From NCBI RefSeq assembly GCF_013315695.1, contig NZ_CP054353.1: a stretch of 64,000 bases of DNA. One strand, given 5' to 3'. This stretch comes from Escherichia coli. GTDB taxonomy: Bacteria; Pseudomonadota; Gammaproteobacteria; Enterobacterales; Enterobacteriaceae. A program made the position numbers. Shown here one piece after another: positions 3,001 through 6,000 of the stretch (position 1 is the first letter of the stretch; every line of letters begins with the position of its first letter).

Positions 3001-6000
3001 GTACCCGGAAGGTTTATATCCCTGGGCTACACGGGTATACACTCTCCAGTCATCGGTCAGCATATAGCCTGCGGATAGCTGCCCGAGCACCTGATCGTCA
3101 TTGCTCTTACCCTGGTCGCCAAACGGGTTGCCGAGCATGCTGCCGTGATATTGTGTACTGGATTTATCATGCGAGAAGCGCACGCCGCCGCCGATATCAA
3201 AACGATCGGTTAAATGCCAGGTCAGGTCACTGTATGCGGCCAGCGTTTCAGCGGTGGTATAGCCGGTACTGCTTAAATAAGGCATTGTCGGCATGTCGTA
3301 GGCTGAATTTAACTTCTCGCGGGTGTTCTGCCGGTACAGCCCAAACACCATATCAACGGTACGCGCATCGCCCAGGGTTGCAGCGCGCAGCTCCTGCACA
3401 TCCTGATTCCAGCGCTGAGGCATATTGACGATTAACGAACCGGAAGGGAAGGTGCGCGAATAATGCTGCTGCTGCCAGGCGCTGATCAGGTTGAAAACCC
3501 AGTCATCGGTGGTGTATTTCCCACTCAGGGTCTGGCTGTCAGTGCAGCGCCGCATGTACGGGTCTGGTGAACCATCGCTGATCGACAGCTTACGGCCCTT
3601 AATATCATTCCATCCCACATAGGCGTCCTGGGTGGCGCGGGTACATTCGCGTGAGGCGGCAAAGCCCATTTCCCAGGGCTGATCGTCCGGCGCCAGACGC
3701 AGTTTCACATTCCCTATGCTGGCGCGGGTGCCGCCTAAGTCATCGCTTCCCGTCGCGGGGTTAATCATGTCGCCGTCATCAACCTGGCGTAACAGGGTGA
3801 CGCTGCCGTACAGCAGGCCATCCTGAATGGGGCCGCTCAGGTTGAACTTACTTCGATAACTGTCGCGGCTACTGACGCCGCCTTCAATATAGCCGCGCGG
3901 CGTGCTGTCCGGCTGCTGGGTGACGATGTTGATGATCCCGCCCTGAGCGCTTTTGCCATATAACGTTCCCTGTGGGCCTCGCAGCAACTCCACGCTTTGC
4001 ACATCGGTAAGCGCCTGGATGGTGTTGGTGGAAAGCTGAGGGACGCCATCGACATACAGGGTGACGGCGGGGTTATAGAAGTCCTGCGCTGAAGAGACGC
4101 CGCGTAGCGAGATCGTCGAAAAAAGCATGTTGCCGCTATTTTCAATATTGAGCCCGGGCAAGACTCTGGGGAGTTTGTCGCTGGCGGTGACGCCGGCGTC
4201 GCTTAATTCCGGCGCGCTGACAACAGTAGACGAGACGTTGTTGGCTGATGCCGAGCGGGAAGATTGTTTACTGGCGGTAACCACCAGCGTGCTTTCGTCT
4301 TGCTGTGAAGTCTGGGCATTAGCAATGGCGGGGAGCAATAATCCCCCCAAGGCCAGAGGATAAAGCCGTGTCATTTTCATTGTTGTGAGTCCCTGTAAGA
4401 CGGCGAAACGCCAAAAAATACCGACAATGGTGAATTGAAAATGATAACTATTTCTAATGGTGGTGCTACCCGAAACGGGTTTATTTCAACCTGTTTCGGG
4501 TCGGTTTGCGCTTATTGGGCAGAATGGCGATAACGGTCGACGGCGAGAGCCGTCAGGCGTTTTTTGTCTATCTTGCCGACGGCGGTGAGCGGCCAGTGGT
4601 CCAGAAACTCGATTTGGTCAGGAATTTTCCACGCGCTGAGCCCCATACGGGTCAGTTGTTGACGCAACTGCTGATAGTCAGTTGGCACCTGCTGCGCGAT
4701 GATAAACGCGCAAATCCGCTCGCCAAGCAGCGTGTCCGGCGCGGCGACCACCGCGCAATCTTGCACTTCCGCTAAACGCAGCAGTGCCGATTCCACTTCA
4801 GCCGCGGCTATTTTTTCTCCGGCGCGGTTGATCTGCTCTTTTATGCGTCCCTCAACGTGCAGGTTCCCCACCTCATCCAGCCTGACATTGTCGCCTGTGC
4901 GGTAAAACCCTTGCGCGGTAAAGGCCTGCGTGTTGTGGGCAGGGGCGCGGTAATAGCCCGAAATGGTATAAGGGCCGCGCGTTAACAATTGCCCGGTTTC
5001 GCCCGGCGCGACGTCGTTCTCGTCTTGATCAACGATGCGGATTTCATCCAGAGGGGACAACGGGCGCCCCTGGCTGTGGAGAATGGTGGCATGCGGATCG
5101 TCCAGCCGGGTAAAACAGAGCAGGCCTTCCGCCATACCGAAAACCTGTTGCAGGGTACAGTCAAAGGTGGCGATAACCTGCTCAGCAAGCGTCGGGTCGA
5201 GCCGGGCGCCGCCTGCCTGAATGACGCGCAGCGACGAAAGGTCGCTGTCTTCCCACTCCCTGGCCTGCACCCATAATTGCGCCAGCGCCGGAACCAGGGC
5301 GACGTGAGTCACTCTTTCCTGCGCGATTAAAGGCATCACCTCATCACAGCTGGCGCTGTCGGTCAGCACCACTTTTCCGCCGCAGGCAAGCGTTCCCAGA
5401 ATACCGGGGCAGGCCAGCGGAAAGTTATGCGCCACCGGGAGGACGGCGAGATACACGCTCTGTTGGCTGATGCCGCACAGTTCAGCAGAAGCGCTGAAGT
5501 TATAGCTATAGTCGGCATGTCGGCGCGGGATGAGTTTGGGCGTGCCGGTTGTGCCGCCTGAGAGCAACAACAACGCGGTGGTGGAAACATCAGGCTGCGG
5601 CCATGCCTGTCGCTCACCGTGAAGGGAGAAGAGCGGCGTAAAATCGTCGCTCATGGTCTCTCCAGCGACCAGAACATGACGCAAGCAGGCGTGTTTGTGC
5701 GCCATCTGTCGGGCCAGCTCTGCGTGGTTTTCCCCGTGAATAACGTAAGCGACGGGTTGCGCCAGCTCAATCAGCGCGTCGATATCCAGCGCCCGTTGCG
5801 AGGGCATCGCCAGCACGGGGATAACGCCCAGTCTTAACAAGGCGAACAGCAGGGTAACAAACGCGTTGTCGTTGGGAAGCTGCACAATTACATGCTCCCC
5901 CGAACGCAAACCCAGTGATGACAGACCTGCGGCAAGTTCGTCAACTTGTGCATCAAGCGCGCTGTAGGTTAACGACCCCTTTGCATCAACGACGGCAATT

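What the first reader, a model, noticed from the sequence alone, without database searches (positions are those of the whole stretch)
4437..4501. Conserved 34-bp inverted repeat shared by the fyuA and irp2 promoters, not found between ybtA and ybtP
acccgaaacgggtttattt-N-cccgtttcgggt occurs upstream of fyuA (4468-4501) and irp2 (23624-23657), each near a Fur-box-like sequence. No equivalent copy was found by eye in the ybtA/ybtP divergent region. Since ybtA itself appears intact, regulation of the transporter operon may differ or the site may be degenerate.
Basis: partly seen in the sequence, partly recalled or inferred. Interest (0 to 1): 0.2.

Follow-up and report, generated by a model that had tools for sequence, protein, structure and literature searches.

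The report
YbtA boxes at three yersiniabactin promoters
The repeat is the already described DNA site for YbtA, the regulator of the yersiniabactin iron-uptake island, and a third, less palindromic copy does lie between ybtA and ybtP, so this locus has the ordinary regulatory layout.

Summary
The two 34-bp repeats are real: 4468-4501 upstream of fyuA and 23624-23657 upstream of irp2, with 0 expected by chance. Each lies 11-12 bp from a Fur box. The claim that ybtA/ybtP lacks a copy is wrong. At 24725-24760 (+) there is a site with the same 13+8+13 geometry and the same trailing AG. It is followed by a Fur box at the same distance and is oriented towards ybtP. It matches the fyuA/irp2 consensus at 26 of 36 positions, the best non-self hit in the window (0.003 expected). 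A matrix built only from distant ybt-like loci gives irp2 43.7, fyuA 40.1 and ybtP 39.7 bits; the next best position in the window scores 1.8. Primers from a published E. coli ybtA-promoter deletion series map exactly onto the window and label these half-sites RS1 and RS2. Across the family the element behaves as a directional tandem repeat in 21-bp register, as for AraC-type activators; the long dyad symmetry is special to the island's fyuA and irp2 copies. All three promoter regions are identical to those of an intact island. Verdict: known YbtA/Fur promoter architecture, with no sign of divergent regulation. Low interest.

The parts
4466..4501 (-). YbtA box of the fyuA promoter: distal half-site 4489-4501 (ACCCGAAACAGGT on -), 8-bp A-rich spacer, proximal half-site 4468-4480 (ACCCGTTTCGGGT), then AG (4466-4467)
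   Evidence: 40.1 bits with the matrix built from distant loci
4437..4455 (.). Fur box of the fyuA promoter (13/19 to consensus). It starts 10 nt after the AG and carries TATCAT, a candidate -10, at its positions 10-15
   Evidence: sequence; gene-oriented layout
23622..23657 (-). YbtA box of the irp2 promoter: distal half 23645-23657 (ACCCGAAACGGGC on -), spacer, proximal half 23624-23636 (ACCCGTTTCGGGT), then AG
   Evidence: 43.7 bits
23594..23612 (.). Fur box of the irp2 promoter (15/19). Its reverse complement GTTAATAATTATTATTCTC is identical to the Fur site that bound Fur in EMSA on the Salmonella pESI plasmid
   Evidence: PMC11225919 section 3.5
24725..24760 (+). YbtA box of the divergent ybtP/ybtA promoter, oriented towards ybtP: distal half 24725-24737 GACCAATGCGGGT (published RS2), spacer ATAAATAG, proximal half 24746-24758 AACCGAATGGGGT (published RS1), then AG
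   Evidence: primers of PMC5634559 map here; nearly invariant in three Klebsiella species, with one spacer base and the first base of the distal half-site differing in K. oxytoca
24771..24789 (.). Fur box shared by the overlapping ybtP and ybtA promoters (15/19). It starts 10 nt after the AG and carries TATTAT at positions 10-15 in the ybtP orientation
   Evidence: one base different from the pESI ybtA Fur site
24809..24857 (.). Stretch that must hold the published third repeat (RS3), because it is present in construct p3RS and absent from p2RS+. No half-site scoring 2 bits or more is found here. It overlaps the inverted repeat ACGCCA-N17-TGGCGT (24803-24831)
23740..24699 (-). ybtA, an intact AraC-family regulator of 319 aa
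   Evidence: Pfam PF12833 and PF00165 on its cluster
23675..23709 (-). ybtA terminator hairpin (15-bp stem followed by UCUUUCC), lying between ybtA and the irp2 YbtA box
   Evidence: -36.9 kcal/mol, z -5.1
2359..4380 (-). fyuA, target gene of the first box
17445..23549 (-). irp2, first gene of the operon served by the second box; here a pseudogene with TGA at 17970-17972
24866..26668 (+). ybtP, first gene of ybtPQXS and target of the third box. NCBI's PGAP annotation pipeline calls a later start at 24956

Best explanation
[quoted passage not shown] Each site has two 13-bp half-sites (family consensus about aaCCGATtCGGGT) whose starts are 21 bp apart, which is two helical turns. The 8-bp spacer is A-rich and the proximal half is followed by a conserved AG. 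Each site points towards the gene it activates: fyuA, irp2-irp1-ybtUTE or ybtPQXS. A 19-bp Fur box begins 9-10 bp beyond the AG and contains the likely -10 hexamer (TATYAT). Inferred mechanism: a YbtA dimer, loaded with yersiniabactin, occupies both half-sites on one face of the helix. The proximal half abuts or overlaps a weak -35 (TAG...), so YbtA would recruit RNA polymerase as a class II AraC-type activator. Fe-Fur bound over the -10 overrides this when iron is plentiful. At the divergent promoter the same box lies at about +8 to +41 of the ybtA transcript, so one binding event would activate ybtP and repress ybtA. Shown here: the sites, their shared geometry, their orientation, their statistical significance and their conservation from E. 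coli to distant Proteobacteria. Taken from the literature or inferred: protein binding, the -35 overlap, the ybtA transcription start and the effector requirement.
For: Two exact copies and a third at 26/36 matches with identical geometry. All three have the module [13-8-13]-AG-N9/10-[19-bp Fur box with TATYAT at positions 10-15]. Deletion-series primers of PMC5634559 (p3RS, p2RS+, p2RS, p1RS) match the window exactly and label 24746-24758 as RS1 and 24725-24737 as RS2. PMC5634559, PMC8725597 and PMC11225919 state that fyuA, irp2 and the divergent irp6(ybtP)/ybtA promoter carry YbtA repeat sequences plus Fur boxes. In 31 distant loci encoding YbtA homologues (33-57% identity), pairs of half-sites in 21-bp register lie directly upstream of ybtA in 18 loci and directly downstream in 20. 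Of 68 pairs scoring 15/20 or more, only about 12 lie anywhere else in about 650 kb. A matrix built from those loci alone finds exactly three sites in the 64-kb window: 43.7, 40.1 and 39.7 bits, with the next best position in the window at 1.8. The ybtP site scores -0.1 in the ybtA orientation. On the columns not used to choose the training sites the three sites rank 1, 2 and 4 of 127,918. In both halves the 3' arm CGGGT is better conserved than the 5' arm, and the halves are more alike as direct than as inverted repeats. ybtA is intact and belongs to the AraC family. The promoter regions are identical to those of the intact SE15 island. The ybtA/ybtP region is 100% identical in over 2,260 E. 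coli genomes, and the box is nearly invariant in three Klebsiella species.
Against: No binding or expression data were produced here. The primary footprinting papers (Fetherston 1996; Anisimov 2005, two papers) are not held, so their exact site boundaries were inferred from later papers and primers. The published third repeat (RS3) could not be recognised with the half-site matrix. The consensus promoter scan found no sigma-70 promoter in any of the three regions. That is expected for activator-dependent promoters, but it means the -10/-35 assignment is inference. The family training sites were picked by similarity to ACCCGNNNCGGGT x2; this circularity is mitigated but not abolished by the unselected-column test. 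Many family sites come from related genomes, so the p-values overstate independence.
Confidence: 0.9

Rival explanations
1. One reading: the ybtPQXS transporter operon has no functional YbtA site in this genome and is regulated differently, for example by Fur alone.
For: By eye the site looks poor: only 15/20 matches to ACCCGNNNCGGGT x2, with 5 and 4 mismatches in the two halves against the exact fyuA/irp2 half-sites. It has no dyad symmetry (8/13) and no hairpin potential.
Against: The site is the best non-self match in the window. It scores as high as the fyuA box with an independently derived matrix. It has the same distance to a Fur box. It is the published RS1/RS2. The sequence is the canonical one found in thousands of E. 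coli genomes and in intact islands. PMC11225919 assayed fyuA, irp2 and ybtP expression by qRT-PCR in a ybtA mutant of Salmonella Infantis and in its complemented strain; the passages I read do not give the direction of the change.
Confidence: 0.03
2. The 34-bp inverted repeats act mainly as RNA hairpins, that is as terminators or 3'-end stabilisers for the upstream ybtE and ybtA transcripts, rather than as protein-binding sites.
For: On the transcribed (-) strand the fyuA and irp2 copies fold into stable hairpins: -20.2 and -22.1 kcal/mol, z about -4. The fyuA copy begins 10 bp after the ybtE stop with no other terminator between them. In the island's copies the central triplets are complementary (AAA/TTT), giving 12/13 dyad symmetry, which is more than the family consensus requires.
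Against: No U-tract follows either hairpin on the - strand; the terminator-like hits are on the + strand only, where no gene ends. ybtA has its own strong terminator upstream of the irp2 box. The ybtP copy and most family copies do not fold and are more direct than inverted, so hairpin formation is not the conserved property. A secondary role for the island's fyuA/irp2 copies is not excluded.
Confidence: 0.05
3. The copies are a dispersed intergenic repeat or mobile-element remnant (REP/ERIC-like), and their promoter positions are coincidental.
For: Short GC-rich palindromes in intergenic DNA are typical of such elements.
Against: There are only three copies in 64 kb, all in front of YbtA-regulated operons, all at a fixed distance from a Fur box and all oriented towards the gene. 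The same arrangement recurs next to ybtA homologues in unrelated genera.
Confidence: 0.01

Closest known systems
[quoted passage not shown] 1996, Anisimov et al. 2005, as cited in PMC5634559 and PMC8725597)
   Same: This is the same element: same genes, same positions, adjacent Fur boxes, and sequences that match the published E. coli NU14 promoter-deletion primers base for base.
   Different: Nothing differs in the regulatory DNA. The published third repeat in the ybtA/ybtP region is not recognisable with my half-site matrix. In this strain the biosynthetic genes irp1 and irp2 are pseudogenes.
AraC half-sites I1-I2 at araBAD and other class II AraC/XylS activator sites (my own knowledge, not tested here)
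   Same: Two similar half-sites in direct orientation with a 21-bp register, bound by a dimer of a two-HTH protein. The promoter-proximal half adjoins or overlaps a weak -35.
   Different: The half-site sequence is different. Each YbtA half-site is itself partly palindromic, and a Fur box is superimposed on the -10.
PchR and the PchR-box of the Pseudomonas aeruginosa pyochelin genes (named as a relative of YbtA in PMC7600106 and PMC3672683)
   Same: An AraC-type regulator clustering with YbtA in a phylogeny of AraC/XylS regulators (PMC7600106). It uses its own siderophore as effector (PMC3672683). From my own knowledge, not from the passages read: it is also Fur-controlled.
   Different: The box sequence was not compared here. 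PchR loci were not among the loci retrieved.
ybtA promoter of the Salmonella Infantis pESI plasmid (PMC11225919)
   Same: Same island, same Fur box (one base different) and same proximal half-site.
   Different: pESI-type plasmids carry a 201-bp insertion that splits the distal half-site after GACCAATGCGGG. The window has no insertion. pESI is the case in which regulation really could differ.

Membership tests
YbtA repeat sequences (RS) of the Yersinia HPI | Located in the promoter regions of the YbtA-controlled operons fyuA/psn, irp2 and the divergent ybtP(irp6)/ybtA pair | tested here: met
   Boxes at 4466-4501, 23622-23657 and 24725-24760, lying 87, 74 and 107 nt upstream of the fyuA, irp2 and ybtP start codons
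YbtA repeat sequences (RS) of the Yersinia HPI | Sequence identity with the experimentally dissected repeats | tested here: met
   All five primers of the p3RS/p2RS+/p2RS/p1RS series (PMC5634559, Table 2) match the window exactly and bracket 24746-24758 (RS1) and 24725-24737 (RS2)
YbtA repeat sequences (RS) of the Yersinia HPI | A Fur box adjacent to each repeat pair | tested here: met
   Fur boxes at 4437-4455, 23594-23612 and 24771-24789, each starting 9-10 nt after the AG
YbtA repeat sequences (RS) of the Yersinia HPI | The cognate AraC-type regulator YbtA is encoded in the locus and intact | tested here: met
   A 319-aa ORF with no stops, annotated ybtA in identical genomes, with Pfam HTH_18 and HTH_AraC
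YbtA repeat sequences (RS) of the Yersinia HPI | Three repeats (RS1-RS3) in the ybtA/ybtP region | tested here: inconclusive
   Two half-sites were found. No third half-site of 2 bits or more lies in 24760-24866, where the constructs place RS3.
YbtA repeat sequences (RS) of the Yersinia HPI | Bound by YbtA and required for yersiniabactin-dependent activation | not testable with these tools
   Needs footprinting, EMSA or reporter assays. Only secondary literature statements are available
AraC/XylS-type class II activator site | Two half-sites in direct orientation on the same helical face (about 21-bp register) | tested here: met
   Start-to-start spacing is 21 bp in all sites. Both halves show the same arm asymmetry, and direct identity exceeds inverted identity across 38 family sites
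AraC/XylS-type class II activator site | The proximal half-site adjoins or overlaps the -35 hexamer | tested here: inconclusive
   TATYAT lies 21-22 nt after the proximal half in all three promoters, which would put a -35 at T-AG-nnn. No transcription start was mapped here and the consensus scan finds no promoter
Rho-independent terminator | A GC-rich hairpin followed by a U-tract on the transcribed strand | tested here: not met
   Hairpins form on the - strand but are followed by AGCACC or AGCAUC. The only terminator-like hits are on the + strand

The most novel reading that the evidence does not exclude
The YbtA box is a directional tandem repeat, nnCCGATtCGGGT-N8(A-rich)-nnCCGATtCGGGT-AG. 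It is conserved next to ybtA homologues from Enterobacterales to Burkholderiales, Chromatiales and Sphingomonadales. The 'degenerate' ybtP copy is the ancestral-like form. The near-perfect 34-bp dyad of the island's fyuA and irp2 copies (complementary AAA/TTT centres) would then be a derived feature with a second role, for example an RNA hairpin that closes the upstream ybtE or ybtA transcripts. I found no paper in the searchable library that describes the family-wide motif, but I did not search exhaustively.
Probability: 0.15. Interest if true: 0.3.

Novelty: already known. Interest (0 to 1): 0.1.

Why it matters
It matters mainly as a correction. The transporter and salicylate-synthase operon ybtPQXS in this genome is not an exception to YbtA control. 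It carries the standard YbtA box and Fur box, so no new regulatory mechanism needs to be proposed. Two by-products are modestly useful. First, a strand-specific position matrix for YbtA-family boxes separates the three true sites from everything else in 64 kb by about 38 bits, and could be used to annotate ybt-like siderophore loci. Second, the element is better read as an AraC-style direct repeat than as an inverted repeat. This explains why a search for a palindrome misses the ybtP copy.

Tried and rejected
1. Primary papers (Fetherston 1996, Anisimov 2005 IJMM and FEMS, and a Perry and Fetherston review) are not held. Site definitions were therefore taken from later open papers and from their primers.
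2. A labelled Yersinia pestis sequence could not be obtained. The genome-contig scan returned Klebsiella island-type loci and distant loci but no Yersinia. Cluster members were E. coli, Klebsiella and Serratia. Loci found with the T2M YbtA variant carry no organism names and were not analysed further.
3. RS3: a half-site matrix scan of 24700-24866 found only the two known halves. The small inverted repeats at 24803-24857 were noted but not pursued.
4. The sigma-70 consensus scan found no promoter in any of the three regions, so the -10/-35 placement rests on the shared TATYAT and its spacing.
5. A single 13-mer search with up to 3 mismatches is not informative: 24 hits against 16 expected. The signal appears only when both halves, the spacer and the orientation are used.
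6. The terminator and mobile-repeat readings were considered and rejected.

Full report
**Observation**

The pattern ACCCGAAACGGGTTTATTTNNNCCNGTTTCGGGT occurs exactly twice in the window, at 4468-4501 and 23624-23657. No shuffle of the window contained it (sequences).

- fyuA 2359-4380 (-)
- ybtE 4512-6089 (-)
- irp2 with ATG at 23549 (-)
- ybtA 23740-24699 (-)
- ybtP from 24866 (+)

The stretch 23400-25000 is 100% identical to more than 2,260 complete E. coli genomes. The window as a whole matches strain MSB1_4I.

Each repeat lies beside a Fur-box-like 19-mer:
- 4437-4455, 13/19 to the consensus (counted by me from the sequence)
- 23594-23612, 15/19; its reverse complement is the exact site shown to bind Fur on the Salmonella pESI plasmid (PMC11225919)

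This part of the finding is confirmed.

**The claim of absence is wrong**

I read each promoter in the direction of its gene:
- fyuA: ACCCGAAACAGGT-TGAAATAA-ACCCGTTTCGGGT-AG
- irp2: ACCCGAAACGGGC-ATAAATAA-ACCCGTTTCGGGT-AG
- ybtP (24725-24760, + strand): GACCAATGCGGGT-ATAAATAG-AACCGAATGGGGT-AG

The ybtP site has the same 13+8+13 geometry, nearly the same spacer and the same trailing AG.
- It matches the two-sequence consensus at 26 of 36 positions. That is the best non-self hit among about 128,000 positions in the window; the runner-up has 22.
- The expected number of hits with 26 or more matches is 0.003 per window and 6e-6 for the intergenic region.
- None of 300 first-order Markov windows reached 26.
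- A single half-site search is uninformative, with 24 hits against 16 expected. This is probably why the copy was missed by eye.

**Shared promoter module**

In all three promoters the AG is followed by 9-10 nt and then a 19-bp Fur box. The third Fur box is at 24771-24789, 15/19 to the consensus. Each Fur box carries TATCAT or TATTAT at its positions 10-15. The ybtP promoter is therefore built like the other two.

**Agreement with the literature**

PMC5634559 dissected the ybtA promoter of E. coli NU14 with constructs p3RS, p2RS+, p2RS and p1RS.
- All its primers match the window exactly.
- By their boundaries, RS1 is 24746-24758 and RS2 is 24725-24737.
- The Fur box lies between 24768 and 24808.
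- RS3 lies somewhere in 24809-24857.

Three papers state that fyuA, irp2 and the divergent irp6(ybtP)/ybtA promoter carry YbtA repeat sequences and Fur boxes: PMC5634559, PMC8725597 and PMC11225919. They cite Fetherston 1996 and Anisimov 2005. I could not open those primary papers.

**Independent comparative test**

With an alignment of YbtA homologues I retrieved 56 loci from species-representative genomes. These comprised:
- three Klebsiella loci of island type;
- about 31 distant ybt-like loci (33-57% YbtA identity) from Pectobacterium, Brenneria, Serratia, Paracidovorax, Ectothiorhodospira, Novosphingobium, Alcanivorax and others. In most of these, ybtA is divergent from a ybtP homologue or from a receptor gene.

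Pairs of half-sites in 21-bp register lie directly upstream of ybtA in 18 of the distant loci. They lie directly downstream, in front of the next operon, in 20. Only about 12 of the 68 pairs scoring 15/20 or more lie anywhere else in about 650 kb.

I built a 42-column matrix from the distant sites only, each oriented towards the gene it precedes. It finds exactly three sites in the 64-kb window:

| Site | Score (bits) |
|---|---|
| irp2 | 43.7 |
| fyuA | 40.1 |
| ybtP | 39.7 |
| next best position in the window | 1.8 |
| ybtP site read in the ybtA direction | -0.1 |

The training sites had been picked by similarity to ACCCGNNNCGGGT x2. I therefore repeated the scan on the 22 columns that played no part in that choice: the spacer, the central triplets and the flanks. 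On those columns the ybtP site ranks 1st, fyuA 2nd and irp2 4th of 127,918 positions.

The ybtP copy is thus not degenerate against the family consensus. It only lacks the extra palindromy of the island's other two copies.

In the Klebsiella island-type loci the box is nearly invariant, while YbtP has diverged to 89-90% in K. oxytoca and K. michiganensis. The only differences within the box are in K. oxytoca: the first base of the distal half-site and one spacer base.

**What kind of repeat it is**

Across 38 unique family sites, both halves show the same asymmetry. The 3' arm CGGGT matches at 4.6 of 5 positions and the 5' arm at 3.2-3.6 of 5. The two halves are more alike as direct repeats (8.9/13) than as inverted repeats (7.5/13).

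The sites are not phylogenetically independent, so the p-values are only indicative. The spacer is strand-asymmetric (A 164, T 47), and AG follows the proximal half almost everywhere.

This is the anatomy of an AraC-family operator: two direct half-sites two helical turns apart. That comparison with AraC I1-I2 is from my own knowledge.

The 12/13 dyad symmetry of the fyuA and irp2 copies comes from their complementary central triplets, AAA and TTT. It is peculiar to the island lineage.

**Mechanism (inferred)**

If TATYAT is the -10, a -35 spaced 16-17 bp upstream would begin at the last T of the proximal half-site (TAGCAC, TAGCAT, TAGATG).
- The conserved AG would then belong to a weak -35.
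- YbtA would act as a class II activator, with Fur bound over the -10.

The consensus scan finds no sigma-70 promoter in these regions. That fits activator dependence but leaves the assignment unproven.

For ybtA, the RACE start mapped on pESI is a C 5 bp beyond the Fur site (PMC11225919). This corresponds to about 24765 in the window. It puts the box at about +8 to +41 of the ybtA leader.
- This would explain the reported autorepression in island-positive strains (PMC5634559).
- It also fits the 'divergent overlapping promoters' in the title of Anisimov 2005.

**Rival readings**

- *RNA hairpin or terminator.* The fyuA and irp2 copies fold well as - strand RNA: -20.2 and -22.1 kcal/mol, z about -4. 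No U-tract follows them. The ybtP copy and most family copies do not fold. ybtA has its own strong terminator at 23675-23709, ahead of the irp2 box. A secondary role for the fyuA copy, which starts 10 bp after the ybtE stop, is not excluded.
- *Dispersed mobile repeat.* This does not fit three copies that are all promoter-linked, all oriented towards the gene and all at a fixed distance from a Fur box.

**Loose ends**

- The published third repeat is not recognisable. No half-site of 2 bits or more lies in 24760-24866.
- That stretch holds small inverted repeats, including ACGCCA-N17-TGGCGT at 24803-24831. Its arms are conserved in Klebsiella while its interior varies.
- A comparison with a labelled Y. 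pestis record could not be made.

**Verdict**

The element is the known YbtA operator. The supposed exception at ybtA/ybtP does not exist. The finding is already known and of low interest.

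Noticed in passing
window 7990-23549 (irp1 and irp2): Both large biosynthetic genes are inactivated relative to the intact SE15 island. irp2 has a TGA at 17970-17972 (codon 1860). irp1 has a stop at 12678-12680 (codon 1559) and a deletion of about 127 bp near 11663-11673. RefSeq annotates both as pseudogenes in the identical strain MSB1_4I. ybtA, fyuA, ybtPQXS, ybtE/T/U and all three YbtA boxes are intact. The strain probably cannot make yersiniabactin but might still take it up and respond to it.
   Followed up: partly
L067 (Salmonella Infantis pESI-type plasmid) against window 24690-24875: 165 Salmonella plasmids carry a 201-bp insertion that splits the distal half-site of the ybtP/ybtA box right after GACCAATGCGGG. 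The proximal half and the Fur box stay intact. This is the natural case in which YbtA control of ybtP/ybtA could really differ.
   Followed up: partly
window 24803-24857: There are small inverted repeats in the ybtP leader / ybtA upstream region: ACGCCA-N17-TGGCGT (24803-24831) and CTGAATT/AATTCAG (24811-24817 / 24851-24857). The arms of the first are conserved in Klebsiella while its interior varies. This is the stretch where the published RS3 must lie, yet it shows no YbtA half-site.
   Followed up: partly
window 24866 vs 24956: The ybtP ORF opens at 24866 (600 aa, the length called in several other assemblies), but RefSeq/PGAP annotates a start at 24956 (570 aa) in the identical genome. The choice changes the apparent size of the intergenic region.
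   Followed up: no
window 57764-57788: Two overlapping 15/19 matches to the Fur-box consensus lie inside the prophage, about 230 bp upstream of the small terminase gene and near a prophage-encoded 'TonB family protein'. This may be chance in AT-rich DNA.
   Followed up: no
window 32680-64000: The island sits at tRNA-Asn (32680-32755) with an intact integrase (31256-32518, -). Beyond mtfA, a lambdoid prophage is inserted at tRNA-Ser (33747-33836). It has a frameshifted integrase and carries two tRNA genes: ARAGORN calls Met and Arg at 49368-49618, while RefSeq calls Ile and Arg.
   Followed up: no
L006, L008-L011, L013, L019, L020 (Pectobacterium, Klebsiella sp. BIGb0407, Brenneria, Serratia): These distant ybt-like loci have the gene order ybtQ-ybtP <> ybtA - ybtX-like - fyuA-like. 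They carry three YbtA-type boxes (before ybtP, before the ybtX-like gene and before fyuA), so the one-regulator, three-box design is kept although the gene order differs from the island.
   Followed up: partly
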